A stretch of DNA of 62,615 bases, the filler included, from Stramenopiles sp. TOSAG23-2 (Eukaryota): NCBI GenBank assembly GCA_900128395.1. It is 11 parts of 11 records of this genome, joined end to end, with 100 filler letters (N's around TTAATTAATTAA, not from the genome) between each part and the next. Parts side by side here need not be neighbours in the genome. Positions count along the whole stretch, not along the records: positions 36,500 to 43,670 come from LT650351.1; 10 more parts are not named here. One strand, written 5' to 3'. The notes beneath the pieces are model-generated. The model was not told the origin of the DNA, made no database searches, and was given only the letters and a program-made list of their open reading frames with translations. Shown here one piece after another: positions 7,218 through 61,243 of the stretch (positions are counted from its first letter, which is position 1; each line of letters begins with the position of its first letter). Position numbers and translations under genes: made by a program.

Positions 7218-7317
7218 NNNNNNNNNNNNNNNNNNNNNNNNNNNNNNNNNNNNNNNNNNNNTTAATTAATTAANNNNNNNNNNNNNNNNNNNNNNNNNNN
7301 NNNNNNNNNNNNNNNNN
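7218..7317. other. Artificial contig linker
   Basis: N44-TTAATTAATTAA-N44, which places stops in all six frames. Confidence 0.99.
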
Positions 7318-14522: not shown

Positions 14523-14622
14523 NNNNNNNNNNNNNNNNNNNNNNNNNNNNNNNNNNNNNNNNNNNNTTAATTAATTAANNNNNNNNNNNNNNNNNNNNNN
14601 NNNNNNNNNNNNNNNNNNNNNN
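14523..14622. other. Artificial contig linker
   Basis: N44-TTAATTAATTAA-N44. Confidence 0.99.
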
Positions 14623-21827: not shown

Positions 21828-21927
21828 NNNNNNNNNNNNNNNNNNNNNNNNNNNNNNNNNNNNNNNNNNNNTTAATTAATTAANNNNNNNNNNNNNNNNN
21901 NNNNNNNNNNNNNNNNNNNNNNNNNNN
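21828..21927. other. Artificial contig linker
   Basis: N44-TTAATTAATTAA-N44. Confidence 0.99.
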
Positions 21928-22189
21928 GCTGGACAGCACCTACTACAGTATATTCTATCCTAATCGGCCTTACCTTAACCTGTGGCACTGTGGTAAAATA
22001 ATAATAGCTACTAATAATAATTAATAATAATCTTAATAATAAATCTTAGTTTATTAATTTAAATTATTAGATACATACTGTATATATTCCCATATACATA
22101 TATATATATATATATATTTGACACTACACATATATACAATACAAAATTATAAATACATGTAATATCTACAAACTACCATCATATAAGAC

Positions 22190-25100
22190 ATGGCAGAAGA
22201 AGAATATGTGCGTGTACGCTTTCGCGTTGCAGTGAATACGGAGTTAGGGGATACCGTACATATATTAGGAGATCAAGAATTAGGTTGTTGGGATAAAAAT
22301 AAATCCGTAGTATTAGTTACAACGCCAGCATCTTATCCAATATGGCAAACATCTAGACCACTACGTTTACAAAAAGGTGTTCGTTTACGATACCGATATG
22401 CCATTTACAATGCTGGTAAATTTCAAAACTGGGCAAATAATACGACTGAAAACAGTGGATATCATCATCTAACGCCTACACTTAGTTTCGATATCAACGA
22501 TCCTATTTTAAGTTTTAATAAAGACTATGATATGACAGTTCAAGATACTAATTTATTAGTTGCAACTATGGAACAAAATGATGGTAATAGCACTGCTGGT
22601 GATGCCGGTGGAAGCAACGATGATGCTTTGCAAAATACAATTACTCGAAATAGCCCTACTACTTTAATATCGGAATTTGTACGTGAAAATGATAAAGTAA
22701 ACAATATTGATGAAGAGGATGACGATTATGAAATTGGACTCAACGAGGATTTAACTTCGCGTGAACTGAGACGTCATAAAACTGGTTCTGTCAATACAAC
22801 TGCAAAACGTGTCTTTTTAGTTACATACAATTTACCCCTAGTGATACGATATACCGTTAAGGGGAAATGGGACGTAACGTGGGATTTGGATCAATTAAGT
22901 GCACGTAGTGAAAATAGTATTGCTGATAAAATGGATACATTATGGATTGGTGTTGTTACTGGTGTATTTGTTGAATCGACGAAGAAAAATTTACGTACGG
23001 ACGATTTAACAGATGAGCAACGAAAAACGTTGACGGAAAAATTAAAGTCAATGGATTGCTATGCTGTATTTGTTGGCAGCAAGGTTCATGAAGATTTTAA
23101 TGTTGGATTTTGCAAATCCGTCTTATGGCCGATGTTGCATAATGCACAAGCGCTTACGCATTTAAACGAACAAATGCGTGATTATAAAAAATATTGGCTT
23201 GGGTACCAACGTGTAAATGAATTAATTGCTGCTCGCGTTGCAAATTTATATAAAGAAGGGGATTTTATATGGATCAATGATTATCATTTATCATTACTAC
23301 CACGAGCGTTAAGAACACGATTGCGAGAAGAATCTGTTACTATTGTTATTTTTTTCCACGTTCCATTTCCAACATCAGAAGTATTTCGATCATTACCAAC
23401 AAGAACGGAGATGTTGCAAGGTATATTAGCTGCAAATGTTGTTGGGTTCCATACATTTTCACATGCAAGGCATTTTTTAACTGCATGTGCTAGATTTGTT
23501 GGAGTAGGATCGCAAAGTCAAATGGGTGACTTGTGCATCAATTACGAAGGCCGCAGTGTCATGGTATGTACCAATCATGTTGGCATTGAATCAGCAATGA
23601 TTATGCGAGAATCGAAATCGAAGCCCGTAGTCGCAAAGGCAAAAGAGTTACGAGCGAAGCACAATGGGCGAACATTATTTGCATCTTTTGAATATTTACA
23701 ACGTTTGAATGGGGTAGCATTAACATTATTAGCGTATGAAATCTTTTTACAAACGTATCCACGCCAACGTTCGAAAGTATGTCTTGTTATGCGATGTGCA
23801 GAAATTGATGAAAGAAAACACGATTCAGACAAGACGAAGGGGGAGTGCGAGGAATTAGTTGCTCGTATAAAGAAACAATTTGGTGAGGAAGTGATCGATT
23901 ACGAGTCATTTTCAACTGGTATCAATGGATGGCAATTTGACTTTACACGGAATGATCGTTTAGCATTGTGGGTAGCCAGTAAAGTACTAATCAAAACATC
24001 TGTACAAGAAGGTTTGAATATGACTCCGTTAGAATTTGTATTAGTCAAAGAACCACCTAATGAAGGTATTGTTGTTCTGAGTGAATTTACCACCGCATGT
24101 GCTGTTTTAAATGGTGCTATTCGAATTAATCCATGGGATATGAAAACGGTCGCAGATACATTATATCAAGCGTATCAAGCTGGCAATGTAGAATGTAGAA
24201 AGCGTCGTGCGAGAGATGTAGAATATATTTCAATGCTACCGTCGTCAGAATGGACAAATCGAATTTTACTTGATGCAGAAAGAACGAAAAGATCAACGGA
24301 TGCAACTGATATGGAGGAATTAAGGCCCGGTCAAAGGCGCGTTTTAAGGCGTGGTGTAATGAAATTAGATGCAGCGTCAGTCAAACGTAGCATAGCTTCT
24401 GCAAAAGATGAAGGAAGACCGTGTGTATATTTATTTGACTACGGGGGGACATTAATACAACGTGAAAATTCAAATAAGCAAAACAAACAACAGTTTTTCG
24501 GTGTGACACGAAGAGCGCCAAGTGAAATGACTAAAAGATGGTTGCGAGAATTATGTTCAAATCCTATGAATGCAGTTTTTGTTGTAAGTGGTGCATCAAC
24601 AAAAGTGTTAAATAAAAATTTTGGTGAGATAGCAAGATTAGGCTTAGCGGCTGAGAATGGCATGTATTTTTCTTGGGATTCTAGCAACGCTAGTAAAACA
24701 AGATTAGAAAGGAATTTTAATGAAGAACCTGATGATGATAATCAAGCAAATCAACCATTTGCTCCTCAAATGGTACGGCGTAATTTTTCAAAGCATGTGC
24801 GGAAGTATAAGGATTTGGATGTCACAATTGGAGGGAGGTTTGGTCGCCAATGGGCTGGATTAGCAAATACGAATGATTCCAATGATTGGTTAGAATGGAA
24901 AGCAACTGCAATTCCAATTCTACAAAATTATACAAGTAGATGTGCAGGGTCTAGATTACGCACCTCGGAAAATCATTTAAGTTGGGATTTCCGATTAGCG
25001 GATCCTGAATGGGCTAAAATCAATGCGAAACATTTAAAAACTGAATTGGAAGAAGCATTGGCAGAACATGATGTGACAATAGAAGTATGGAAAGGATCGG

Positions 25101-25426
25101 TCAATGTTATACCTAGTGGTATGACAAAAGGCTTAGTAGTTGAACATATTTTAGAGGAGGTTCAAAATATTTATGGACGCCGTGCTGGTATGATATTTTG
25201 TATCGGTGATGATCTTGCAGATGAATCAATGTTTGAAGTTTCATTAGAATATGAAAGCGAAAAATTAAAGCAACGAAACAGAAATGATACAAAACGTGTA
25301 TTTACATGTTGTGTTGGTAAGAAACCTAGTAGAGGTGAATATTATGTAAATAATGTCGATGATGTCCAAAATTTATTAAGAGATTTAGTCCAAGGAAGTG
25401 GTTTAGATTTGCAAGGATATTTTTAA
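22190..25426 (+). CDS. TPS: Trehalose-6-phosphate synthase/phosphatase-family protein with N-terminal CBM20
   Basis: CBM20-like start (TELGDTVHILG..ELGCWD...YPIW). GT20 motifs GFCKSVLWP, WINDYHL, FFHVPFPTSEVFR, LSEF, GAIRINPWD. HAD-type C-terminus LFDYGGTL, LAAENG, IGDDLADESMF. Confidence 0.93.
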   Translation: MAEEEYVRVRFRVAVNTELGDTVHILGDQELGCWDKNKSVVLVTTPASYPIWQTSRPLRLQKGVRLRYRYAIYNAGKFQNWANNTTENSGYHHLTPTLSFDINDPILSFNKDYDMTVQDTNLLVATMEQNDGNSTAGDAGGSNDDALQNTITRNSPTTLISEFVRENDKVNNIDEEDDDYEIGLNEDLTSRELRRHKTGSVNTTAKRVFLVTYNLPLVIRYTVKGKWDVTWDLDQLSARSENSIADKMDTLWIGVVTGVFVESTKKNLRTDDLTDEQRKTLTEKLKSMDCYAVFVGSKVHEDFNVGFCKSVLWPMLHNAQALTHLNEQMRDYKKYWLGYQRVNELIAARVANLYKEGDFIWINDYHLSLLPRALRTRLREESVTIVIFFHVPFPTSEVFRSLPTRTEMLQGILAANVVGFHTFSHARHFLTACARFVGVGSQSQMGDLCINYEGRSVMVCTNHVGIESAMIMRESKSKPVVAKAKELRAKHNGRTLFASFEYLQRLNGVALTLLAYEIFLQTYPRQRSKVCLVMRCAEIDERKHDSDKTKGECEELVARIKKQFGEEVIDYESFSTGINGWQFDFTRNDRLALWVASKVLIKTSVQEGLNMTPLEFVLVKEPPNEGIVVLSEFTTACAVLNGAIRINPWDMKTVADTLYQAYQAGNVECRKRRARDVEYISMLPSSEWTNRILLDAERTKRSTDATDMEELRPGQRRVLRRGVMKLDAASVKRSIASAKDEGRPCVYLFDYGGTLIQRENSNKQNKQQFFGVTRRAPSEMTKRWLRELCSNPMNAVFVVSGASTKVLNKNFGEIARLGLAAENGMYFSWDSSNASKTRLERNFNEEPDDDNQANQPFAPQMVRRNFSKHVRKYKDLDVTIGGRFGRQWAGLANTNDSNDWLEWKATAIPILQNYTSRCAGSRLRTSENHLSWDFRLADPEWAKINAKHLKTELEEALAEHDVTIEVWKGSVNVIPSGMTKGLVVEHILEEVQNIYGRRAGMIFCIGDDLADESMFEVSLEYESEKLKQRNRNDTKRVFTCCVGKKPSRGEYYVNNVDDVQNLLRDLVQGSGLDLQGYF

Positions 25427-25495
25427 AAAGAGAGGGAGCGATATTTTATTACGCGAGTATAAATTACATATTTCTCTTTATATATATATATAGCA

Positions 25496-25547
<52 letters not shown>

Positions 25548-25616
25548 TGCTATATATATATATAAAGAGAAATATGTAATTTATACTCGCGTAATAAAAT
25601 ATCGCTCCCTCTCTTT

Positions 25617-28600
25617 TTAAAAATATCCTTGCAAATCTAAACCACTTCCTTGGACTAAATCTCTTAATAAATTTTGGACATCATCGACATTATTTACATA
25701 ATATTCACCTCTACTAGGTTTCTTACCAACACAACATGTAAATACACGTTTTGTATCATTTCTGTTTCGTTGCTTTAATTTTTCGCTTTCATATTCTAAT
25801 GAAACTTCAAACATTGATTCATCTGCAAGATCATCACCGATACAAAATATCATACCAGCACGGCGTCCATAAATATTTTGAACCTCCTCTAAAATATGTT
25901 CAACTACTAAGCCTTTTGTCATACCACTAGGTATAACATTGACCGATCCTTTCCATACTTCTATTGTCACATCATGTTCTGCCAATGCTTCTTCCAATTC
26001 AGTTTTTAAATGTTTCGCATTGATTTTAGCCCATTCAGGATCCGCTAATCGGAAATCCCAACTTAAATGATTTTCCGAGGTGCGTAATCTAGACCCTGCA
26101 CATCTACTTGTATAATTTTGTAGAATTGGAATTGCAGTTGCTTTCCATTCTAACCAATCATTGGAATCATTCGTATTTGCTAATCCAGCCCATTGGCGAC
26201 CAAACCTCCCTCCAATTGTGACATCCAAATCCTTATACTTCCGCACATGCTTTGAAAAATTACGCCGTACCATTTGAGGAGCAAATGGTTGATTTGCTTG
26301 ATTATCATCATCAGGTTCTTCATTAAAATTCCTTTCTAATCTTGTTTTACTAGCGTTGCTAGAATCCCAAGAAAAATACATGCCATTCTCAGCCGCTAAG
26401 CCTAATCTTGCTATCTCACCAAAATTTTTATTTAACACTTTTGTTGATGCACCACTTACAACAAAAACTGCATTCATAGGATTTGAACATAATTCTCGCA
26501 ACCATCTTTTAGTCATTTCACTTGGCGCTCTTCGTGTCACACCGAAAAACTGTTGTTTGTTTTGCTTATTTGAATTTTCACGTTGTATTAATGTCCCCCC
26601 GTAGTCAAATAAATATACACACGGTCTTCCTTCATCTTTTGCAGAAGCTATGCTACGTTTGACTGACGCTGCATCTAATTTCATTACACCACGCCTTAAA
26701 ACGCGCCTTTGACCGGGCCTTAATTCCTCCATATCAGTTGCATCCGTTGATCTTTTCGTTCTTTCTGCATCAAGTAAAATTCGATTTGTCCATTCTGACG
26801 ACGGTAGCATTGAAATATATTCTACATCTCTCGCACGACGCTTTCTACATTCTACATTGCCAGCTTGATACGCTTGATATAATGTATCTGCGACCGTTTT
26901 CATATCCCATGGATTAATTCGAATAGCACCATTTAAAACAGCACATGCGGTGGTAAATTCACTCAGAACAACAATACCTTCATTAGGTGGTTCTTTGACT
27001 AATACAAATTCTAACGGAGTCATATTCAAACCTTCTTGTACAGATGTTTTGATTAGTACTTTACTGGCTACCCACAATGCTAAACGATCATTCCGTGTAA
27101 AGTCAAATTGCCATCCATTGATACCAGTTGAAAATGACTCGTAATCGATCACTTCCTCACCAAATTGTTTCTTTATACGAGCAACTAATTCCTCGCACTC
27201 CCCCTTCGTCTTGTCTGAATCGTGTTTTCTTTCATCAATTTCTGCACATCGCATAACAAGACATACTTTCGAACGTTGGCGTGGATACGTTTGTAAAAAG
27301 ATTTCATACGCTAATAATGTTAATGCTACCCCATTCAAACGTTGTAAATATTCAAAAGATGCAAATAATGTTCGCCCATTGTGCTTCGCTCGTAACTCTT
27401 TTGCCTTTGCGACTACGGGCTTCGATTTCGATTCTCGCATAATCATTGCTGATTCAATGCCAACATGATTGGTACATACCATGACACTGCGGCCTTCGTA
27501 ATTGATGCACAAGTCACCCATTTGACTTTGCGATCCTACTCCAACAAATCTAGCACATGCAGTTAAAAAATGCCTTGCATGTGAAAATGTATGGAACCCA
27601 ACAACATTTGCAGCTAATATACCTTGCAACATCTCCGTTCTTGTTGGTAATGATCGAAATACTTCTGATGTTGGAAATGGAACGTGGAAAAAAATAACAA
27701 TAGTAACAGATTCTTCTCGCAATCGTGTTCTTAACGCTCGTGGTAGTAATGATAAATGATAATCATTGATCCATATAAAATCCCCTTCTTTATATAAATT
27801 TGCAACGCGAGCAGCAATTAATTCATTTACACGTTGGTACCCAAGCCAATATTTTTTATAATCACGCATTTGTTCGTTTAAATGCGTAAGCGCTTGTGCA
27901 TTATGCAACATCGGCCATAAGACGGATTTGCAAAATCCAACATTAAAATCTTCATGAACCTTGCTGCCAACAAATACAGCATAGCAATCCATTGACTTTA
28001 ATTTTTCCGTCAACGTTTTTCGTTGCTCATCTGTTAAATCGTCCGTACGTAAATTTTTCTTCGTCGATTCAACAAATACACCAGTAACAACACCAATCCA
28101 TAATGTATCCATTTTATCAGCAATACTATTTTCACTACGTGCACTTAATTGATCCAAATCCCACGTTACGTCCCATTTCCCCTTAACGGTATATCGTATC
28201 ACTAGGGGTAAATTGTATGTAACTAAAAAGACACGTTTTGCAGTTGTATTGACAGAACCAGTTTTATGACGTCTCAGTTCACGCGAAGTTAAATCCTCGT
28301 TGAGTCCAATTTCATAATCGTCATCCTCTTCATCAATATTGTTTACTTTATCATTTTCACGTACAAATTCCGATATTAAAGTAGTAGGGCTATTTCGAGT
28401 AATTGTATTTTGCAAAGCATCATCGTTGCTTCCACCGGCATCACCAGCAGTGCTATTACCATCATTTTGTTCCATAGTTGCAACTAATAAATTAGTATCT
28501 TGAACTGTCATATCATAGTCTTTATTAAAACTTAAAATAGGATCGTTGATATCGAAACTAAGTGTAGGCGTTAGATGATGATATCCACTGTTTTCAGTCG

Positions 28601-28853
28601 TATTATTTGCCCAGTTTTGAAATTTACCAGCATTGTAAATGGCATATCGGTATCGTAAACGAACACCTTTTTGTAAACGTAGTGGTCTAGATGTTTGCCA
28701 TATTGGATAAGATGCTGGCGTTGTAACTAATACTACGGATTTATTTTTATCCCAACAACCTAATTCTTGATCTCCTAATATATGTACGGTATCCCCTAAC
28801 TCCGTATTCACTGCAACGCGAAAGCGTACACGCACATATTCTTCTTCTGCCAT
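25617..28853 (-). CDS. TPS: Identical inverted copy of the CBM20-TPS/TPP gene (probably artefactual)
   Basis: Translation identical to 22190-25426; it is the mirror arm of the palindrome. Confidence 0.6.
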   Translation of the reverse strand: MAEEEYVRVRFRVAVNTELGDTVHILGDQELGCWDKNKSVVLVTTPASYPIWQTSRPLRLQKGVRLRYRYAIYNAGKFQNWANNTTENSGYHHLTPTLSFDINDPILSFNKDYDMTVQDTNLLVATMEQNDGNSTAGDAGGSNDDALQNTITRNSPTTLISEFVRENDKVNNIDEEDDDYEIGLNEDLTSRELRRHKTGSVNTTAKRVFLVTYNLPLVIRYTVKGKWDVTWDLDQLSARSENSIADKMDTLWIGVVTGVFVESTKKNLRTDDLTDEQRKTLTEKLKSMDCYAVFVGSKVHEDFNVGFCKSVLWPMLHNAQALTHLNEQMRDYKKYWLGYQRVNELIAARVANLYKEGDFIWINDYHLSLLPRALRTRLREESVTIVIFFHVPFPTSEVFRSLPTRTEMLQGILAANVVGFHTFSHARHFLTACARFVGVGSQSQMGDLCINYEGRSVMVCTNHVGIESAMIMRESKSKPVVAKAKELRAKHNGRTLFASFEYLQRLNGVALTLLAYEIFLQTYPRQRSKVCLVMRCAEIDERKHDSDKTKGECEELVARIKKQFGEEVIDYESFSTGINGWQFDFTRNDRLALWVASKVLIKTSVQEGLNMTPLEFVLVKEPPNEGIVVLSEFTTACAVLNGAIRINPWDMKTVADTLYQAYQAGNVECRKRRARDVEYISMLPSSEWTNRILLDAERTKRSTDATDMEELRPGQRRVLRRGVMKLDAASVKRSIASAKDEGRPCVYLFDYGGTLIQRENSNKQNKQQFFGVTRRAPSEMTKRWLRELCSNPMNAVFVVSGASTKVLNKNFGEIARLGLAAENGMYFSWDSSNASKTRLERNFNEEPDDDNQANQPFAPQMVRRNFSKHVRKYKDLDVTIGGRFGRQWAGLANTNDSNDWLEWKATAIPILQNYTSRCAGSRLRTSENHLSWDFRLADPEWAKINAKHLKTELEEALAEHDVTIEVWKGSVNVIPSGMTKGLVVEHILEEVQNIYGRRAGMIFCIGDDLADESMFEVSLEYESEKLKQRNRNDTKRVFTCCVGKKPSRGEYYVNNVDDVQNLLRDLVQGSGLDLQGYF

Positions 28854-29115
28854 GTCTTATATGATGGTAGTTTGTAGATATTACATGTATTTATAATTTT
28901 GTATTGTATATATGTGTAGTGTCAAATATATATATATATATATATGTATATGGGAATATATACAGTATGTATCTAATAATTTAAATTAATAAACTAAGAT
29001 TTATTATTAAGATTATTATTAATTATTATTAGTAGCTATTATTATTTTACCACAGTGCCACAGGTTAAGGTAAGGCCGATTAGGATAGAATATACTGTAG
29101 TAGGTGCTGTCCAGC

Positions 29116-29215
29116 NNNNNNNNNNNNNNNNNNNNNNNNNNNNNNNNNNNNNNNNNNNNTTAATTAATTAANNNNNNNNNNNNNNNNNNNNNNNNNNNNN
29201 NNNNNNNNNNNNNNN
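29116..29215. other. Artificial contig linker
   Basis: N44-TTAATTAATTAA-N44. Confidence 0.99.
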
Positions 29216-36399: not shown

Positions 36400-36499
36400 N
36401 NNNNNNNNNNNNNNNNNNNNNNNNNNNNNNNNNNNNNNNNNNNTTAATTAATTAANNNNNNNNNNNNNNNNNNNNNNNNNNNNNNNNNNNNNNNNNNNN
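36400..36499. other. Artificial contig linker
   Basis: N44-TTAATTAATTAA-N44. Confidence 0.99.
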
Positions 36500-36526
36500 T
36501 TGCCATAAACCTTTCTTTTCCCCAAG

Positions 36527-36829
36527 TTGCTGATTCTTTTCATGTTCCTCACGTTGTTTGTTGCAACATGTTTTACCCTTAGTGCATGGTGGGGATCCAT
36601 GACATATTTTAATATGATGACAACATTCTATCAATCACGTTTTAATAAATATTTAAAAGGTTTAAAAGAAGCACATATGAAAGGGGGTGGAAAAGATGTT
36701 GAATATATTGAAAAGGAAATGAGAAATACAATCATGGTTAGAAGAAAGACAAAGAATTCTTTTGTAGATGAAAAGTCAGTTGCACTTAATATTTTAGGAG
36801 AGGAGGAGCAAGAAGTTACTCAAGTTTAA
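36527..36829 (+). CDS. Terminal exon of a membrane protein (partial)
   Basis: The acceptor-like ctttcttttccccaag ends at 36526, followed by an open frame with one TM helix and a charged tail. Confidence 0.5.
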   Translation: MLILFMFLTLFVATCFTLSAWWGSMTYFNMMTTFYQSRFNKYLKGLKEAHMKGGGKDVEYIEKEMRNTIMVRRKTKNSFVDEKSVALNILGEEEQEVTQV

Positions 36830-37025
36830 GAGAGTATTTAACACACACTATAGGCGGCACCTATAGTGTGAGAAATAGATTTCAATTTATTGCCTCAGAG
36901 TTACATTATTATTTTGACAGTAGAGTGGCACGCAGTGTGTAAATTCTAATTACGAGCGTACGACCGAAAATTGTCCGGTCGCCGCGAGTCTGTTTAAAAT
37001 AGTAAATAATTATTATTTTATTATC

Positions 37026-37934
37026 TTATGATGCACCAGTACATGCATCTTTAAAAATACATTCTGCAGCACTGCTCACCATACCATGTATATCAATATC
37101 CGATGCACCATGTTCACCAGCTTGATCAACAGAAACACCACGACCTCCAGAAATAGATTTTTTCATAATTGCTTTCACAGCAGCTTTCGCAGTATTTGCT
37201 CCACATCCAGTCAATATATTACCCTTTATTGCATCCCAACAACCTTCTAAATTCAAACTGGCTATTTGAGTGATTGGTGGCAATCCCATTGCTTTGGGAG
37301 AAAGCTCACCATTTAAACCATTCAATGTCGTTTTTATTCCTTTGGCCATTGTATCTAATCCAAGTGGATCACCTGAATACATACGAGTTCTCATACGATT
37401 TCTCAAACTTGTTTTTGTTTCTGAAGCAATTCTTTTTAAACGAAAATTTTTTACAAGACTATCATCTTCACTATTAATAGAAGGAAGATGAGGTGACAAG
37501 ATAATGTTGTCCATATTATCATCATTAAATTGTGATTTCCCGATTTGCAAAAATGAACGTGGTAATACTTGGTTATAATATTGTTGTTTACCAGTTACGT
37601 TTACTAGTTTGCGATTGTCACTGTTATCGTCCATTAAATAAGACTTTAATAACGCATTTGTCATATCAAATACAAGTTTTTCTCTATTTTTTTGATTGTT
37701 ATAATATGGATGTTGAAAGACTGGGCTATGGCCATCCTTTCCAAAAAATATATTTCGTACGCTGTTTTTAATATCTTCACTTGTAACAGTAATACTGTCC
37801 TTATTACTATTACTATTTTTAGAAGATGGAGTCTTCAATGTTAAACGATACGGTATTGAATGACTTAATTGACATATTAATAACAATATGTACAACTTGG
37901 AAAAAATGGGCAGTTTTAAATTTATATATTTCAT
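37026..37934 (-). CDS. Secreted proprotein of unknown family; short paralog of 38710-40395
   Basis: Signal peptide (LYILLLICQLSHS). Collinear similarity to the N-terminal 300 aa of the neighbour: YRLTL.TPSS, NREKLVFD.T..LLKSYL, NFRLKRIASETKTSLRNR, NLEGCW.A.KG, EC.FKDAC. Confidence 0.85.
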   Translation of the reverse strand: MKYINLKLPIFSKLYILLLICQLSHSIPYRLTLKTPSSKNSNSNKDSITVTSEDIKNSVRNIFFGKDGHSPVFQHPYYNNQKNREKLVFDMTNALLKSYLMDDNSDNRKLVNVTGKQQYYNQVLPRSFLQIGKSQFNDDNMDNIILSPHLPSINSEDDSLVKNFRLKRIASETKTSLRNRMRTRMYSGDPLGLDTMAKGIKTTLNGLNGELSPKAMGLPPITQIASLNLEGCWDAIKGNILTGCGANTAKAAVKAIMKKSISGGRGVSVDQAGEHGASDIDIHGMVSSAAECIFKDACTGAS

Positions 37935-38709
37935 CGAATATTAATATAAATGTTACTTATCCACTGTCCGACTTCTTACATTATGATTAGATTGGAGCGA
38001 GATACTCGTTTTTAGAGCATGGAAACGGTGGACCCACAGTGGTTTCTCTGAGTCGGAAGTGTGTATGCTGGTATGACGCCATGAGCCATGACGTCATGTA
38101 TAGTCTTCAGTTTTCACGTTTTCACTATGTTGGCCTTGCTATATAGAAGAAAATAAAATTTTACAATAGGCATACCATTACATTTCGTCATTATGTCAAA
38201 AAAAGCTGCTGAAAAGATATTAATAAGTTAAAGTGCATAGCGTTTCTTTTTGAGTTTAGAAGACGGGGGGCAACCATGATATGGCACAGTGTAAATTTAA
38301 TAAAAAGCAAAGATAATAAAGACTATTTTTATAAAATTATAAAACTAAACATGCAGACTTTTAATTCATATCGTCGAATAGCATTGTGAGTATGTACCAA
38401 TATATATGACGTTTCTTTTATATATTATATTATAAGACTAAATTATTATAATAAAAGGAGGAGGACTGGCACATCAGACATCAGGAATCAGGAGGAGAGA
38501 GAATAAGAAGAAGAGAAGAAGAGAAGAAGAGAATGGAAAAAAAGAAGAAGAAGACTGATAATAGTAGTTAAAATAATTAATAATAAATTGAACAATATAA
38601 TAGTACGAAAGACAAACTATTTAAACGAAAACAAATATTTTTTAGAATCCGTTGATTACTTTATTTTTTACGAAGCAAAATATTATTTGCTCATATATAA
38701 GTTCCCACG

Positions 38710-40395
38710 ATGAGGCATATTATTTTCATTACGTTGTATACGTTATTGATATTATTATTCAATTTTTTAAATATTACCGGAAATGCATTGCAATATCGGT
38801 TAACACTGACTTCCCCATCCTCTTCCAAACATGGAATTAATAGTGATAATAATGACAATAGTAAAATTTATCTTACGACAGAAGATCTCAAAACTAGTGT
38901 ACGAAATGTTTTGTTTGGAAAAAATGGCCGTAGTCTGGTCTTTCAACATAAGTATTATCACAATTCAAATAATAGAGAAAAGCTTGTATTTGATGTGACA
39001 AAAGAATTATTAAAATCATATTTAATAAAACAAAGTAGTAGTAACAGAGCTGGTGAACAATATTATAACCAGATGTCACCTTCTGCTTTTTTAGAACTTA
39101 AGAAAGACAATAAATATCTTAAATATAATAAGATTGAGAAGGCATCGCCTTCTTCTGATTCTATAAATACTGGGCAGCAACGACTGTTAAGAAATTCGAT
39201 GCATAATTTTCGTTTAAAAAGAATTGCTTCAGAAACAAAAACAAGTTTGAGAAATCGTATACGAGCTGGTACGGGAGATCCCCTTGGGTTAGATGAAGCT
39301 GCTAAAGGAATCAGAACACAACTGGATGGTTTGAATAACCAATTAACTGATAAAGCAAAATCACTCGCAGCTGCTATTCCTCATCTTCCTAATTTTAATT
39401 TAGAAGGTTGTTGGAATGCATTGAAAGGCGAAGTAAAGACTGGATGTGGAAAAAATACTGCGAAAGCTGCTATTAAAACAATTATGAAACGTACTATATC
39501 TTCTGGGCGTGCAGTTTCTGTTGGCGATGCTGCTGAACATGGTGCATCGGATAATAATATATTTGGCATGATGAGCAGTGTTGCAGAATGTGTTTTTAAA
39601 GATGCATGTGATGGTGTCTCAAATGAAGGTGATGAGCCGGAAGAAGATGCAGATGGAGGAGATGTTAATAGTGGTGCTGATGATGAAGGTGGTGCTGGGG
39701 CAGGCGCTGGTGCTGGTGGTGCTGGGGCAGGAGGTGGAGCAGGTGGTGCTGGGGCAGGCGGTGGTGCTGGTGGAGGAGGCGCCGCGGGTTCTTCGTCGTC
39801 TTCATCACCTTCTAGAAAGTCTACATCGGGTTCCTCAAATGATAATGGTTCTTCCGATGCTAAAGGGCAAAGCAGTGCAACAAATAATCCAAACCTAGCA
39901 AAAGAAGGCTCCGCTGATGGTTCAGTTAAATATAATAATCATGGCAAACGTAATAAACCAATACAAAAGGCACTGATGGGTGTACTTGAAGCTGGTGCAA
40001 AAGCAGCAAAAGTAATTGTAAAGATCAATAGTGGTGGACAAGTACGTAAAGCAGATGGAGGTAAAAATGGGGTCGATCGGACAGGATCTAATAGGCATGA
40101 TAATGGATGGGCTGCAGATGTTGCTTTATGGAACAATGGTAAGATTTTGTCAAGTGCACGTGAATCCGATCTACCAATTATGATTACATTTATGCAAGCA
40201 TGTAAAGATGCCGGAGCAACTGCTATTGGCCAAGGCAATAACTATATGGGTAATACTGGGATACATGTTGATATAGCATTGATAGGTCAATCAAAAGGTG
40301 ATATAGATGGAATATCACAAGCAACATGTTGGGGAGGACCAAATTCTAGATATGCTGGGTCTCCAGGTTATTTAAAAAAAATTATGCGTTTGTAA
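38710..40395 (+). CDS. Secreted proprotein with Gly-rich linker and C-terminal peptidase M15-like (Hedgehog/DD-peptidase fold) domain
   Basis: Signal peptide, the shared 4-Cys domain and a GAGAGG linker. The C-terminal domain has INSGGQ, RTGSNRHDNGWAAD (HxxGxAxD) and GIHVD (HxD). Confidence 0.8.
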   Translation: MRHIIFITLYTLLILLFNFLNITGNALQYRLTLTSPSSSKHGINSDNNDNSKIYLTTEDLKTSVRNVLFGKNGRSLVFQHKYYHNSNNREKLVFDVTKELLKSYLIKQSSSNRAGEQYYNQMSPSAFLELKKDNKYLKYNKIEKASPSSDSINTGQQRLLRNSMHNFRLKRIASETKTSLRNRIRAGTGDPLGLDEAAKGIRTQLDGLNNQLTDKAKSLAAAIPHLPNFNLEGCWNALKGEVKTGCGKNTAKAAIKTIMKRTISSGRAVSVGDAAEHGASDNNIFGMMSSVAECVFKDACDGVSNEGDEPEEDADGGDVNSGADDEGGAGAGAGAGGAGAGGGAGGAGAGGGAGGGGAAGSSSSSSPSRKSTSGSSNDNGSSDAKGQSSATNNPNLAKEGSADGSVKYNNHGKRNKPIQKALMGVLEAGAKAAKVIVKINSGGQVRKADGGKNGVDRTGSNRHDNGWAADVALWNNGKILSSARESDLPIMITFMQACKDAGATAIGQGNNYMGNTGIHVDIALIGQSKGDIDGISQATCWGGPNSRYAGSPGYLKKIMRL

Positions 40396-40525
40396 AAATA
40401 TATTTTTTTGTATTTTTCGAATGTTATAATATTTGCTGGTTTGCATTTTATTATAAAATATTAATAAATATATATATGGTACAAATGATAGTTCGTTTTC
40501 ACGACATCGTGCACAAATCCAACGC

Positions 40526-42609: not shown

Positions 42610-43670
42610 TCATTTTAATCTTCTTCGACGACGACGGCGTCGACGATCGCAAGTACCACGCTTATTCCAATTTCTGTTAATATCTGTAACGGAATGACTG
42701 TTTGTATCTCTAATATCAGGACCAAACGGTCTGCACCATTTTTGATACGCGGGCTTTTTACGCGATTCTTCCCCAGTTCTCTTCCCAACGATAGCACATC
42801 TTATGAGTCTATTAATACAAGGCACTGTTGTTTTTTCTCCACTTGCAACCATACGAGGGGAACCAACTGCATGCCTAACGTCAGAGCAATCCCAATGCCA
42901 TTGTTGTGTTCTTCCACGATGGTATAACCACCATTTATGTAGATTGGGTGGACAGCCATCAGCACAACAGCCTTTTTTCTTATCCCAATCACGATTAACA
43001 GTATTAATTTTCATTGTGAATTGACCGGTGCGTGGCCAAGTTTGTCCAATTAATTCTGGCAAACATGCATCAATATCCTTTTGTGAATGTTCCTCACGTG
43101 CCCGACAATTATCATAACAGTCCCATGTCCATGCTGGTCCACTGTATATATCAAAATATCTTTCCCATTTGATATCCTTGCCGCATTTATTGTCGGTACA
43201 ACATCCCCTCTTGTCATCCCAATTTCTAATTATTTTTACATTTTTCCCACCAAATGCAGCATTACCAGTTTCTAAAGTCTTATCTATACAATATTGTTTA
43301 TGCCCATCTTTACGTGCTCTGCAATTATCGTTACAGTCATAGACGTCCCCTTTGTGGTATTGCTTTAACCAATGTTTAAACTTCTGCTCGCAATCTGGTT
43401 TTGGATCTGGTTTTGGATCTGGTTTTGGGTCAGGACCTTCACAACTACCATCATCCTGCGTTGCTTTTTTATTAAAATTCTTTGCGTTCGCATCCATGCA
43501 TCCTTTCACTGGAAGCTGACATGAGCCATCATCTTCCGTTGCCTCCGCATTATAATTAGTAGCACCCGAATTCATGCAGCCTTTGATCGGAGGTGGAAGT
43601 GGAAATTTACAAGATCCATCTTCTATTTCTGCTTCAGGATTGTAATTTTCCGCCTCAGAATCCATACATC
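42610..43670 (-). CDS. Cys-rich extracellular-type protein, 5' truncated: GCMD..A.NYN..A..DDGSC repeats, PDPK linker, three Cys/Trp repeats, poly-Arg tail
   Basis: Three GC(M)xxxAxN(Y/F)NxxAxx(E/D)DGSC units, then three units sharing (W/Y)DCxD...RxW(D/N)...GxC. The frame is open to the contig edge. Confidence 0.8.
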
Positions 43671-43770
43671 NNNNNNNNNNNNNNNNNNNNNNNNNNNNNN
43701 NNNNNNNNNNNNNNTTAATTAATTAANNNNNNNNNNNNNNNNNNNNNNNNNNNNNNNNNNNNNNNNNNNN
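43671..43770. other. Artificial contig linker
   Basis: N44-TTAATTAATTAA-N44. Confidence 0.99.
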
Positions 43771-50937: not shown

Positions 50938-51037
50938 NNNNNNNNNNNNNNNNNNNNNNNNNNNNNNNNNNNNNNNNNNNNTTAATTAATTAANNNNNNN
51001 NNNNNNNNNNNNNNNNNNNNNNNNNNNNNNNNNNNNN
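50938..51037. other. Artificial contig linker
   Basis: N44-TTAATTAATTAA-N44. Confidence 0.99.
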
Positions 51038-58197: not shown

Positions 58198-58297
58198 NNN
58201 NNNNNNNNNNNNNNNNNNNNNNNNNNNNNNNNNNNNNNNNNTTAATTAATTAANNNNNNNNNNNNNNNNNNNNNNNNNNNNNNNNNNNNNNNNNNNN
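58198..58297. other. Artificial contig linker
   Basis: N44-TTAATTAATTAA-N44. Confidence 0.99.
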
Positions 58298-59670: not shown

Positions 59671-59770
59671 NNNNNNNNNNNNNNNNNNNNNNNNNNNNNN
59701 NNNNNNNNNNNNNNTTAATTAATTAANNNNNNNNNNNNNNNNNNNNNNNNNNNNNNNNNNNNNNNNNNNN
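59671..59770. other. Artificial contig linker
   Basis: N44-TTAATTAATTAA-N44. Confidence 0.99.
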
Positions 59771-61143: not shown

Positions 61144-61243
61144 NNNNNNNNNNNNNNNNNNNNNNNNNNNNNNNNNNNNNNNNNNNNTTAATTAATTAAN
61201 NNNNNNNNNNNNNNNNNNNNNNNNNNNNNNNNNNNNNNNNNNN
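61144..61243. other. Artificial contig linker
   Basis: N44-TTAATTAATTAA-N44. Confidence 0.99.

What the first reader, a model, noticed from the sequence alone, without database searches (positions are those of the whole stretch)
39940..40395. Bacterial/phage-type M15 zinc peptidase-like domain in a eukaryotic gene: possible horizontal transfer
Seen: RNKPI...INSGGQ...RTGSNRHDNGWAAD...GATAIG.G.NYMG..GIHVD. Established: the Hedgehog/DD-peptidase (M15) fold binds zinc through HxxGxAxD plus a downstream His, and M15 enzymes cut peptidoglycan stem peptides. All three ligands appear intact (His 40096, Asp 40117, His 40264). Inference: this SGGQ/RTGS.RHD variant is one I associate with proteobacterial and phage virion proteins. 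Here it has host-like AT-rich codons and a eukaryotic-style leader, suggesting an old, ameliorated transfer.
Basis: partly seen in the sequence, partly recalled or inferred. Interest (0 to 1): 0.75.

Follow-up and report, generated by a model that had tools for sequence, protein, structure and literature searches.

The report
Phage cell-wall peptidase domain in protist gene
An expressed gene of an uncultured marine eukaryote ends in a zinc-peptidase-type domain whose nearest relatives sit in marine bacteriophage proteins, a further example of eukaryotes borrowing bacterial cell-wall-cutting enzymes.

Summary
ORF 38710-40395 (+) encodes a 561-aa protein. Its last ~169 residues carry the quoted motifs, with His/Asp/His at exactly 40096, 40117 and 40264.

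No Pfam, PHROG, NCBIfam or PDB sequence model hits the domain. Other evidence places it in the Hedgehog/DD-peptidase (LAS, M15-type) superfamily:
- The AlphaFold model (pLDDT 92) matches that fold in two independent structure searches.
- A profile-profile comparison with Peptidase_M15_3/DUF882 proteins gives 95% probability and aligns the three metal ligands.

The closest relatives (58-61% identity) are ~360-aa proteins on marine phage contigs, one of which carries an alphaproteobacterial tmRNA. More distant relatives are fused to peptidoglycan-binding, lysozyme and gp5 tail-spike domains.

The window is a chain of unlinked contigs, so the eukaryotic neighbours prove nothing. Eukaryotic status rests on other evidence:
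- PolyA-selected metatranscriptome contigs from three studies cover the ORFs on this contig, and little or none of the spacer upstream of the gene.
- One RNA contig spans the fusion junction.
- Two other assemblies are colinear with the gene.

Best reading: a phage or bacterial peptidase domain, captured by a marine protist and fused behind a secretion leader, that probably cuts bacterial cell wall. "Old, ameliorated" cannot be tested, because the phage homologues are equally AT-rich. A precedent exists (rusticalin), so this is a new member of a known kind.

The parts
38710..40395 (+). Whole gene: 561-aa protein (P0001). No joint (intron) seen inside it in the RNA contigs laid on it.
38710..38784 (+). 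Hydrophobic N-terminal leader (about aa 1-25), read as a secretion signal. This is an inference; no signal-peptide predictor was available.
   Evidence: Kyte-Doolittle 12-residue maximum of 2.77 at residue 4. The paralogue and P0003 also start with hydrophobic leaders.
38785..39624 (+). Lineage-specific N-terminal domain (about aa 26-305) with four conserved Cys and a conserved FRLKRIASETKTSLRNR stretch. Fold unknown.
   Evidence: No relatives outside its own cluster. 53% identical to the neighbouring paralogue. AF2 model unusable at pLDDT 35.7.
39625..39885 (+). Low-complexity acidic / Gly-Ala / Ser-rich linker (about aa 306-392), variable in length between strains.
   Evidence: cluster members of 542-570 aa. 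3-nt deletion at 39678 in RNA contigs of 3 runs.
39886..40392 (+). C-terminal LAS / M15-type zinc-peptidase-like domain (aa 393-561). It is homologous to residues 191-358 of the phage protein P0018.
40096..40098 (+). His463 (H71 of the domain), putative zinc ligand 1. Invariant.
40117..40119 (+). Asp470 (D78), putative zinc ligand 2. Invariant.
40264..40266 (+). His519 (H127), putative zinc ligand 3, in the motif HVD. Invariant.
37026..37934 (-). Divergently oriented paralogue (302 aa). It has the leader plus N-domain only and stops where the linker begins in the target gene. It is covered by polyA-library RNA contigs.
36400..36499 (.). Artificial spacer (N44-TTAATTAATTAA-N44): left end of the finding's contig.
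43671..43770 (.). Artificial spacer: right end of the finding's contig.

Best explanation
The gene belongs to an uncultured, AT-rich, intron-poor marine eukaryote. It encodes a secreted (or food-vacuole-targeted) protein built from four pieces: a hydrophobic leader, a lineage-specific N-domain, a low-complexity linker, and a C-terminal domain captured from a bacteriophage or its bacterial host.

The captured domain belongs to a family without any Pfam model, inside the LAS / Hedgehog-DD-peptidase (MEROPS M15-type) superfamily. In phages and bacteria this family sits on virion, tail-spike and cell-wall-lytic proteins, where it presumably opens peptidoglycan by cutting stem peptides.

In the eukaryote the domain keeps every invariant residue of the family, including the His-x6-Asp...His zinc triad. 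It therefore most likely still works as a zinc-dependent peptidoglycan peptidase, used to digest or kill bacteria as prey or competitors.

Shown: homology, fold, ligand conservation, phage affinity, presence in polyA-selected RNA libraries, and the fusion junction in both DNA and RNA.

Inferred: secretion, zinc binding, catalytic activity, bond specificity and biological role.
For: Homology and fold:
- 984 relatives at E<=1e-3.
- H71, D78 and H127 are among 12 invariant columns, and the window's protein carries all 12 invariant and all 13 nearly invariant residues.
- AF2 model with pLDDT 92.2 and pTM 0.89.
- Foldseek PDB: ChiX E 5.5e-4, Ply500, LysECD7, RB49/T5 L-Ala-D-Glu peptidases, MepA, Shh.
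- VIA-align: 10 of the top 11 rows have the same fold, Z 5.3-6.8.
- BFVD: 13 hits at E<=1e-3, all phage. The named ones are 'Cell wall hydrolyse', 'Peptidase M15A, C-terminal', 'Peptidase M15' and 'Endolysin'; just below the threshold (E 1.3e-3) comes 'Murein endopeptidase K'.
- hhalign against ten Peptidase_M15_3/DUF882 proteins gives probability 95%, E 3.7e-8. It aligns S49~S32, H71~H51, D78~D58, H127~H92 and W149~W101.

Cell-wall context:
- Of 68 relatives scanned, 19 carry peptidoglycan-binding or lytic Pfam domains (PG_binding_1 8, SH3_3 2, SLT/SLT_3 4, Phage_lysozyme2 2, GH19 1, Glucosaminidase 1, Transglycosylas 1, the last one below its cut-off).
- 2 of the 68 carry Gp5_OB.

Phage affinity:
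- 58% identity with P0018, confined to the domain.
- 3 of 3 IMG/VR loci are syntenic.
- The 93-kb contig has RNR, exonuclease, ligase, tail-fibre-like genes, tRNAs and an alpha_tmRNA at 145 bits.
- In a careful tree the eukaryote trio is a clade (100/99) that is joined with the 28 marine phage-type proteins and set apart from 17 other relatives (96/91).

Eukaryotic, expressed and fused:
- RNA contigs from polyA or oligo-dT libraries of 3 studies cover 39162-40344 and the paralogue.
- They give almost no cover of the upstream spacer 37971-38659, which a DNA run does cover.
- X15 record 4 spans 39491-40170.
- No joints lie inside the gene.
- L012 and L013 are colinear at 98.8% and 97.9%.
- About 56-60% of the contig is coding (coordinates), against tightly packed phage loci.

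Precedent: rusticalin-like secreted proteins of tunicates, lancelets, a coral and Trichoplax have the same plan (PMC6339383, abstract and section 7 read).
Against: - No sequence model of any M15 family reaches threshold on the domain. Only 1 of 31 family members gave a weak PF08291 hit, E 0.011.
- Structural Z-scores of 5.3-6.8 are in the range the tool warns can be common arrangements. The case rests on their consistency together with the hhalign result.
- The SGYR arginine that is invariant in the M15_3 set is Gln in SGGQ. No general base could be assigned. D129 of HVD is Gly in many family members.
- No enzyme of this family has been assayed, as far as my searches show.
- The contig carries no gene with a eukaryote-only Pfam domain. 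The clearly eukaryotic genes of the window lie on other, unlinked contigs.
- Contigs of an RNA library cannot by themselves prove transcription. The DNA run laid (X2) gave no contig over 39860-40339.
- The AU test does not reject the phage clade excluding the eukaryote sequences (p 0.59). Nesting, as opposed to a sister position, is therefore unresolved.
Confidence: 0.7

Rival explanations
1. The domain was captured as described but no longer acts as a hydrolase. Instead it serves as a peptidoglycan- or matrix-binding, sensing or signalling module, as the zinc site of Sonic hedgehog does in animals.
For: Hedgehog N-domains share the fold and keep the same triad without a proven peptidase role in signalling (PMC6027127 and PMC8052667, abstracts in search listing only). 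The substrate-binding Arg of SGYR is replaced, and no catalytic base could be assigned.
Against: All 12 invariant and 13 nearly invariant family residues are kept, in the eukaryote copy as in the phage copies. SGGQ is the family's own consensus, not a eukaryote-specific change. Relatives are fused to lytic domains.
Confidence: 0.15
2. The contig is not from a cellular eukaryote. It would instead come from a large DNA virus of eukaryotes, or be a phage or bacterial contaminant binned with eukaryotic contigs.
For: The window is a chain of unlinked contigs. The finding's contig has no eukaryote-only Pfam domain. Large viruses of eukaryotes also make polyadenylated RNA (recalled). One contig of the set is a palindromic chimera.
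Against: Coding density is only about 56-60%, with 0.8-1.7 kb AT-rich spacers and divergent genes. Phage loci, in contrast, are packed on one strand. Other features that argue against it: low-complexity linkers, hydrophobic leaders, a lineage-specific paralogue pair, and cover in polyA or oligo-dT libraries of 3 studies that largely follows the ORFs. GC and GC3 match the other eukaryotic contigs, although they match the phage too.
Confidence: 0.07
3. The protein acts on peptidoglycan inside the cell, either on the wall of a plastid or endosymbiont during division or to control it, rather than on prey.
For: An N-terminal leader is also the first part of targeting signals to complex plastids (recalled). 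Some eukaryotes keep organelle peptidoglycan (recalled).
Against: No plastid or symbiont marker was seen on this contig. The donor family is virion- and lysis-associated. Two different N-terminal architectures carry the domain.
Confidence: 0.05
4. The transfer went the other way: a eukaryotic domain was picked up by marine phages.
For: The AU test leaves a sister relation open.
Against: The family has 984 representatives at E<=1e-3. Wherever I could read their context it is bacterial or phage: PG_binding, SH3_3, SLT, Gp5_OB, Roseococcus and Acetobacteraceae MAGs, a Schitoviridae virion protein and phage-only BFVD hits. Only three eukaryote-type sequence clusters were seen.
Confidence: 0.03

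Closest known systems
Rusticalin and rusticalin-like proteins of tunicates, cephalochordates, a coral and Trichoplax (PMC6339383)
   Same: Both are secreted eukaryotic proteins with a taxon-restricted N-terminal part, a linker and a C-terminal Hedgehog/DD-peptidase-fold domain. In both the zinc ligands are conserved and the domain is attributed to transfer from bacteria or phages. The structural match to phage A500 endolysin 2VO9 also appears in my searches.
   Different: The recipient is different (a marine unicellular eukaryote, as inferred) and so is the N-domain (not beta-defensin-like repeats). The peptidase subfamily also differs. Rusticalin matches Pfam clan CL0170 and 2VO9 by sequence (paper, section 7), whereas this domain hits no Pfam model and is nearest to M15_3/DUF882. 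Here the donor lineage can be narrowed to marine phage contigs at 58-61% identity. Direct homology between the two proteins was not tested.
Pfam Peptidase_M15_3 (PF08291) / Peptidase_M15_2 (PF05951, DUF882, YcbK/MepK-like)
   Same: Profile-profile probability is 95%, E 3.7e-8. The shared motif order is S-G-x-x ... H-x6-D ... G-x-G-I-G ... H-V-D ... W-G. A true PF08291 gene (71 bits) lies two genes downstream of the phage homologue.
   Different: The domain stays below every Pfam threshold. It has SGGQ instead of SGYR and a longer insert between the SGGQ motif and the His. It has an extra 'YMG' loop before HVD and a longer C-terminal tail.
Phage L-alanoyl-D-glutamate endopeptidases (T5, RB49, Ply500, LysB4, LysECD7) and Serratia ChiX
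   Same: These are the best structural matches. Foldseek gives probability 0.96-1.00 for the four best of them (ChiX, Ply500, LysECD7, RB49) and 0.80 for T5. VIA-align gives Z 5.3-6.1 for Ply500, LysB4, RB49 and T5. All are zinc-dependent peptidoglycan stem-peptide cutters of phages.
   Different: Sequence identity is only 15-19%. Those enzymes are endolysins or a secretion-linked enzyme, while this family sits mostly at the end of large virion or tail proteins. Bond specificity is unknown here.
Other laterally acquired peptidoglycan hydrolases of eukaryotes, e.g. Trichomonas NlpC/P60 enzymes (PMC10461829 and PMC12612818, abstracts in search listing only)
   Same: The same evolutionary logic applies: a microbial eukaryote uses a bacterial-type wall hydrolase against bacteria.
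   Different: The fold and chemistry are unrelated (cysteine peptidase versus zinc LAS). The donor there is bacterial, here it is phage-like.
Hedgehog N-terminal signalling domain
   Same: The fold and zinc triad are shared.
   Different: No sequence-level match, no Hint/intein autoprocessing domain, and no sign of a role in signalling. The nearest kin are phage proteins.

Membership tests
LAS / Peptidase_MD superfamily (Hedgehog/DD-peptidase fold, MEROPS M15-type) | Hedgehog/DD-peptidase alpha/beta sandwich fold | tested here: met
   AF2 pLDDT 92.2. Foldseek PDB top hits are ChiX, Ply500, LysECD7, RB49/T5 peptidases, MepA and Shh. In VIA-align, 10 of the top 11 rows have the same fold at Z 5.3-6.8. 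BFVD gives 13 phage hits at E<=1e-3.
LAS / Peptidase_MD superfamily (Hedgehog/DD-peptidase fold, MEROPS M15-type) | His-x6-Asp plus a downstream His as zinc ligands, in register with the family's ligands | tested here: met
   H71, D78 and H127 are invariant in 31 sequences. They align with the invariant H51, D58 and H92 of ten M15_3/DUF882 proteins. That these three are the metal ligands in M15 enzymes is recalled knowledge and is stated for 2VO9 in PMC6339383, section 7.
LAS / Peptidase_MD superfamily (Hedgehog/DD-peptidase fold, MEROPS M15-type) | A catalytic base / substrate-binding Arg near the metal | tested here: inconclusive
   The Arg of SGYR is Gln in SGGQ. R70 and D72 are invariant or nearly invariant, and D129 is variable. 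No coordinates were available for inspecting the site.
LAS / Peptidase_MD superfamily (Hedgehog/DD-peptidase fold, MEROPS M15-type) | Zinc binding and peptidoglycan peptidase activity | not testable with these tools
   Needs purified protein.
Pfam Peptidase_M15_3 (PF08291) | Score at or above the family's gathering threshold | tested here: not met
   0 families at E<=1 for the window's domain. 1 of 31 family members reached E 0.011. Related at profile level only.
Eukaryotic peptidoglycan hydrolases acquired by horizontal transfer (rusticalin type) | Prokaryote/phage-type catalytic domain whose eukaryotic copies are few and group with prokaryotic or phage sequences | tested here: met
   The eukaryote trio plus 28 marine phage-type proteins form a clade with 96/91 support against 17 others. 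The quick tree of 144 rows agrees. Nested versus sister position is unresolved.
Eukaryotic peptidoglycan hydrolases acquired by horizontal transfer (rusticalin type) | The gene resides in, and is expressed from, a eukaryotic genome | tested here: inconclusive
   PolyA or oligo-dT RNA contigs of 3 studies largely follow the ORFs. The gene layout looks eukaryotic. There is no physical link to a eukaryote-only gene.
Eukaryotic peptidoglycan hydrolases acquired by horizontal transfer (rusticalin type) | N-terminal secretion signal | tested here: inconclusive
   A hydrophobic leader is present. No dedicated predictor was run.
Hedgehog signalling proteins | HH signal domain by sequence, followed by a Hint autoprocessing domain | tested here: not met
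   No Pfam family on the 561-aa protein. The domain is C-terminal and the protein ends 42 residues after H519.

The most novel reading that the evidence does not exclude
A widespread marine bacterivorous protist has domesticated the wall-piercing peptidase module of virion proteins from phages of marine alphaproteobacteria. It has spread the module into at least two different secreted architectures (P0001 type and P0003 type) as a prey-digesting or bactericidal enzyme. This would be gene flow from phage to predator along the microbial food chain. It would involve a large LAS subfamily (about a thousand 50%-identity representatives) that has no Pfam model and no studied member.
Probability: 0.4. 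Interest if true: 0.6.

Novelty: new member of a known kind. Interest (0 to 1): 0.45.

Why it matters
If the enzyme is active, it adds a marine, unicellular case to the short list of eukaryotes that arm themselves with bacterial or phage cell-wall hydrolases. The donor lineage here is unusually well defined: phages carrying an alphaproteobacterial tmRNA. It also points to a large, unannotated branch of the M15-type superfamily on phage virion and tail proteins. That branch deserves a family model and a biochemical specificity assignment. The gene occurs in metagenomes and polyA metatranscriptomes of 13 studies, so the organism and the gene may be ecologically relevant to bacterivory in the sea. 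The general principle, however, is already established.

Tried and rejected
- **Sequence models.** Pfam, PHROG, NCBIfam and PDB sequence searches on the domain found nothing. A PDB profile search with A1 gave only a chance UvrB hit, E 1.6.
- **N-domain.** No relatives outside its own cluster were found among proteins of 308-982 aa. AF2 on an 8-row alignment gave pLDDT 35.7, so no fold search was attempted.
- **Amelioration test by GC and GC3.** It is uninformative, because donor-like phage genes have GC3 of 0.19-0.22, against 0.19 for the domain.
- **Nesting of the eukaryote clade within the phage clade.** Only 4% of 200 bootstrap trees keep the phage proteins as one clade. The AU test, however, does not reject that clade (p 0.59, with the constrained tree 1.97 lnL better). 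I claim grouping, not nesting.
- **Viral hallmark searches in the 93-kb contig.** PF07068 (Gp23) and PF04451 (NCLDV capsid) gave no match. The controls did not ring either, and the record is a fragment, so this is uninformative.
- **Window's own genome.** None is held.
- **Earlier findings of this scan.** None by place or by sequence.
- **Cultured-phage collection.** Only 4 records matched, all Agrobacterium phage OLIVR1-3, at 31% identity.
- **GTDB genomes.** Only 2 loci were confirmed, because the pattern scan needs close relatives.
- **Protein Atlas.** Nearest clusters are bacterial or Uroviricota, one with PF08291 on 32% of members; these are leads only. On the TPS-TPP protein of another contig it says only 'Eukaryota', so the lineage of the organism stays unknown.
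- **DNA run X2.** It showed no contig over 39860-40339. Only about 55% of the run was read and contigs drop variants, so this is not evidence against the junction. L012, L013 and RNA record 4 do span the junction.
- **RNA loose end at 36554.** The 30-nt continuation seen there was not found anywhere in the window.
- **Literature.** Four searches found no paper on this subfamily or on an M15-type transfer into a marine protist. Subscription journals are not covered. I did not open the supplementary lists of PMC7379824 (98 eukaryotic proteins with prokaryote-type domains), which could contain relatives.
Full report
**What is there.** The ORF at 38710-40395 (+) encodes 561 residues. The three proposed ligands are coded exactly where stated: CAT at 40096, GAT at 40117 and CAT at 40264. 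These are His463, Asp470 and His519.

The protein has four parts:
- a hydrophobic leader, with a Kyte-Doolittle 12-residue maximum of 2.77 at residue 4;
- an N-domain of about 280 residues;
- an acidic / Gly-Ala / Ser-rich linker;
- a C-terminal domain of about 169 residues.

**The window is not one molecule.** Ten spacers of the form N44-TTAATTAATTAA-N44 cut it into separate contigs. The finding's contig is 36500-43670. The clearly eukaryotic genes of the window all lie on other contigs: Tub, RhoGEF, ankyrin, CBM20-TPS-TPP, HMG box, ammonium transporter and IQ. They are no evidence for this gene's context.

The finding's own contig holds:
- a divergently oriented 302-aa paralogue at 37026-37934 (-). 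It is 53% identical to the leader plus N-domain and ends just where the linker starts;
- the target gene;
- a 113-aa ORF;
- a Cys-rich repeat ORF at 42610-43665 (-). None of these matches Pfam.

**Is the domain of M15 type?** Direct sequence models say nothing. Pfam, PHROG, NCBIfam and PDB sequences gave no hit.

The domain is nevertheless a member of a big family. There are 984 representatives at E<=1e-3, 231 at E<=1e-10 and 4 at E<=1e-30 among 1.84 billion cluster representatives. In an alignment of the window's domain with 30 short relatives, the invariant positions are S49, G51, G67, R70, H71, G74, D78, G115, Y120, M121, H127 and G150. The consensus reads SGGQ ... RTGSxRHDxGxAAD ... GATGIGxGxxYMG ... 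HVD ... WG.

The structure evidence is as follows:
- AlphaFold2 on this alignment gave pLDDT 92.2 and pTM 0.89.
- Foldseek against the PDB ranks ChiX L-Ala-D-Glu endopeptidase first (E 5.5e-4). Then come Ply500, LysECD7, the RB49 and T5 L-alanoyl-D-glutamate peptidases, MepA and many Hedgehog N-domains.
- The Foldseek-independent search of 48,161 chains gives Hedgehog, the Streptomyces DD-peptidase, Ply500, MepA, VanX, LysB4 and the RB49 and T5 peptidases in 10 of its top 11 rows. Their Z-scores are 5.3-6.8. Rank 10 is the zinc-binding C-domain of VldE. Unrelated folds follow from Z 4.4. These Z values alone are middling; their unanimity is what counts.
- Against predicted viral structures, 13 hits reach E<=1e-3 and all are from phages. 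The named ones are 'Cell wall hydrolyse' of Agrobacterium phage Atu_ph03, 'Peptidase M15A, C-terminal', 'Peptidase M15' and 'Endolysin'. 'Murein endopeptidase K' follows just below the threshold, E 1.3e-3.

The sequence bridge comes from the phage contig itself. Two genes downstream of the phage homologue lies a true Peptidase_M15_3 gene (PF08291, 71 bits). I collected ten proteins of that kind, which carry precomputed PF08291 and/or PF05951 labels. hhalign between the two alignments gives probability 95% and E 3.7e-8 over 99 columns. It aligns S49 with S32, H71 with H51, D78 with D58, H127 with H92, D129 with D94 and W149 with W101. Each of these six positions is invariant in the M15_3 set (single-sequence versions).

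The domain is therefore a distinct, unmodelled branch of the LAS / Peptidase_MD superfamily, nearest to M15_3/DUF882. It is not a member of any Pfam M15 family by threshold. Only 1 of 31 family members gave even a weak PF08291 hit, E 0.011.

**What the family does elsewhere.** I scanned 68 relatives with Pfam:
- 19 carry cell-wall binding or lytic domains next to this domain: PG_binding_1 in 8, SH3_3 in 2, SLT/SLT_3 in 4, Phage_lysozyme2 in 2, and GH19, Glucosaminidase and Transglycosylas in 1 each (the Transglycosylas match is below its cut-off).
- 2 carry Gp5_OB.
- 3 have sub-threshold DUF2345 matches.
- None of the families listed is an M15 model.

In the cultured-phage collection only Agrobacterium phages OLIVR1-3 match (4 records, 31% identity). 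In OLIVR1 (Schitoviridae) the match lies in an 822-aa 'virion structural protein', directly upstream of the virion RNA polymerase. This fits a virion-borne wall-opening enzyme. That function is an inference from context.

**Nearest relatives.** The closest non-eukaryote-type proteins are proteins of about 330-376 aa from marine metagenomes, at 45-61% identity. Similarity is confined to the domain: P0001 residues 396-559 against P0018 residues 191-358, 58% identity, E 6e-51.

Three of three IMG/VR loci that encode them share the same gene order: RNR large subunit, RNR small subunit, a 99-aa ORF, the homologue, a 264-293-aa ORF, the M15_3 gene, and a 202-aa ORF.

The 93-kb record also has an exonuclease, a DNA ligase, tail-fibre-like and virion-structural PHROG matches, several tRNAs, and an alphaproteobacterial two-piece tmRNA (RF01849, 145 bits, E 2.9e-40). 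A tmRNA only makes sense in a bacterial host. These are therefore bacteriophages, probably of marine alphaproteobacteria.

**Trees.**
- In a quick tree of 144 non-redundant domains, the three eukaryote-type sequences form a clade (SH-aLRT 97). They are the window's protein plus P0003 and P0004, which have an unrelated N-terminal half. This clade lies inside a starred clade of 16 together with 13 marine phage-type proteins.
- In a careful tree of 48 rows, the trio has 100/99 support. Trio plus 28 phage-type proteins are separated from 17 other relatives at 96/91. The phage proteins form a clade of their own in only 4% of 200 bootstrap trees.
- The AU test does not reject that clade (p 0.59).

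I therefore claim grouping with the marine phage lineage, not nesting. The direction phage/bacterium to eukaryote rests on breadth. The family is huge and, wherever its context could be read, bacterial or phage. Only three eukaryote-type clusters were seen.

**Is it a eukaryotic, expressed, fused gene?** The contig looks eukaryotic. It is about 56-60% coding, with AT-rich spacers of 0.8-1.7 kb, divergent paralogues, low-complexity tracts and hydrophobic leaders.

The stretch occurs in 20 listed runs of 13 studies. Six of these runs, from four studies, are polyA or oligo-dT RNA libraries. I laid contigs of three RNA runs from three studies, plus one DNA run:
- RNA contigs cover the paralogue and 39162-40344 of the target gene.
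- X15 record 4 (677 nt, 3 mismatches, one 3-nt gap) runs from 39491 to 40170. It thus spans the end of the N-domain, the linker and the start of the peptidase domain.
- X19 record 13 matches 39913-40341 without a mismatch.
- The upstream spacer 37971-38659 has no RNA cover, while the DNA run covers 38136-39234.
- Downstream of the gene, only one of the three RNA runs shows sparse cover.
- No joint lies inside the gene, so it appears intronless.

Contigs cannot give strand or transcript ends, and an RNA library can contain DNA, so expression is well supported rather than proven.

At DNA level, two other public contigs are colinear with the window. L012 matches 38334-40400 at 98.8%. L013 matches 36958-40458 at 97.9% and includes the paralogue. 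A 24-member protein cluster of 542-570-aa forms also exists.

**What cannot be said.**
- 'Old and ameliorated': GC3 is 0.19 for the domain, 0.21 for the N-domain, 0.19-0.25 for ORFs of the other contigs, and 0.19-0.22 for the phage homologues. Donor and recipient cannot be told apart by composition.
- The lineage of the eukaryote is unknown.
- The N-domain has no relatives and no usable model.
- Bond specificity, zinc binding and activity are untested.
- The invariant Arg of the SGYR motif in M15_3 is Gln here, as it is throughout this family.

**Mechanism proposed.** The leader takes the protein into the secretory or endolysosomal route (inferred). The C-terminal domain binds zinc through His463, Asp470 and His519, and cleaves a peptide bond of the peptidoglycan stem or cross-link. 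This is inferred from superfamily membership, full conservation of family invariants, and the company the domain keeps. The organism uses it to break down the walls of ingested or neighbouring bacteria (inferred by analogy).

After capture, the domain was combined with at least two different N-terminal parts (P0001 type and P0003 type; 81% identical domains). The stand-alone paralogue suggests that the P0001 type arose by adding linker plus domain to the 3' end of a pre-existing secreted-protein gene.

**Comparison and novelty.** The plan is that of rusticalin-like proteins, which combine a signal peptide, a taxon-restricted N-part, a linker and a phage-type Hedgehog/DD-peptidase-fold domain with conserved ligands. 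Those are ascribed to phage-mediated transfer (PMC6339383, abstract and section 7 read; PMC7379824, abstract read, also reports a fungal protein with a Peptidase M15 domain).

Laterally acquired NlpC/P60 wall hydrolases of Trichomonas are a functional parallel (PMC10461829 and PMC12612818, abstracts in the search listing only). The kinship of Hedgehog with bacterial M15A peptidases is also in print (PMC6027127, abstract in the listing).

Three things are new here: the subfamily (no model, no studied member), the recipient (a marine microbial eukaryote), and the well-defined phage donor lineage. My four literature searches found no report of this. Supplementary tables were not opened.

Verdict: a real and well-supported case, and a new member of a known kind.

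Noticed in passing
window 7218-7317, 14523-14622, 21828-21927, 29116-29215, 36400-36499, 43671-43770, 50938-51037, 58198-58297, 59671-59770, 61144-61243: The window is a chain of separate contigs joined by N44-TTAATTAATTAA-N44 spacers (six-frame stop linkers). The first eight pieces are each about 7.2 kb and the next two are 1373 bp each. Neighbourhood across a spacer means nothing.
   Followed up: yes
window 21928-29115: This contig looks like a palindrome. Identical 1078-aa CBM20 + trehalose-6-phosphate synthase + phosphatase ORFs lie at 22190-25426 (+) and 25617-28853 (-), with identical Pfam scores. The contig ends are reverse complements of each other. It is probably an amplification or assembly chimera rather than a true inverted duplication.
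   Followed up: partly
window 42610-43665 (-): A 351-aa Cys-rich ORF with repeated units of the type 'GCM..A.NYN..A..DDGSC', a PKPD repeat and an Arg run at the end. It has no Pfam match. PolyA-library RNA contigs of three runs cover it, with many strain differences. It may run off the contig end.
   Followed up: partly
window 36500-36554: RNA contigs of three studies all leave the contig at 36554 and continue with the same 30 nt, which occur nowhere in the window. A DNA run reads on. This could be a splice junction of a gene at the contig edge or an assembly breakpoint.
   Followed up: partly
L002 16662-16969 (IMG/VR contig, 93 kb): The marine phage contig that encodes the closest non-eukaryotic homologue carries an alphaproteobacterial two-piece tmRNA (RF01849, 145 bits). 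It also carries at least eight tRNA-like genes across the fetched parts, next to RNR, ligase, ABC-transporter-like and PRPP-synthetase-like genes. CheckV completeness is 25%, which suggests a very large phage.
   Followed up: partly
window 39625-39885, especially 39678: The Gly/Ala/Ser linker varies in length between strains. RNA contigs of three runs show a 3-nt deletion at 39678. Cluster members range from 542 to 570 aa.
   Followed up: partly
window 39208-39258 (aa 167-183) and paralogue: The stretch FRLKRIASETKTSLRNR is identical in both paralogues, although they are only 53% identical overall. The dibasic LKR could be a pro-protein processing site, which is speculation.
   Followed up: no
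L002 9959-12632, L001 9959-12629, L003 3283-6082: In all three phage loci the homologue (362-375 aa) is followed by an unannotated 264-293-aa ORF and then a true Peptidase_M15_3 protein of 262-263 aa. The phage thus carries two different LAS-type peptidase genes two ORFs apart.
   Followed up: partly
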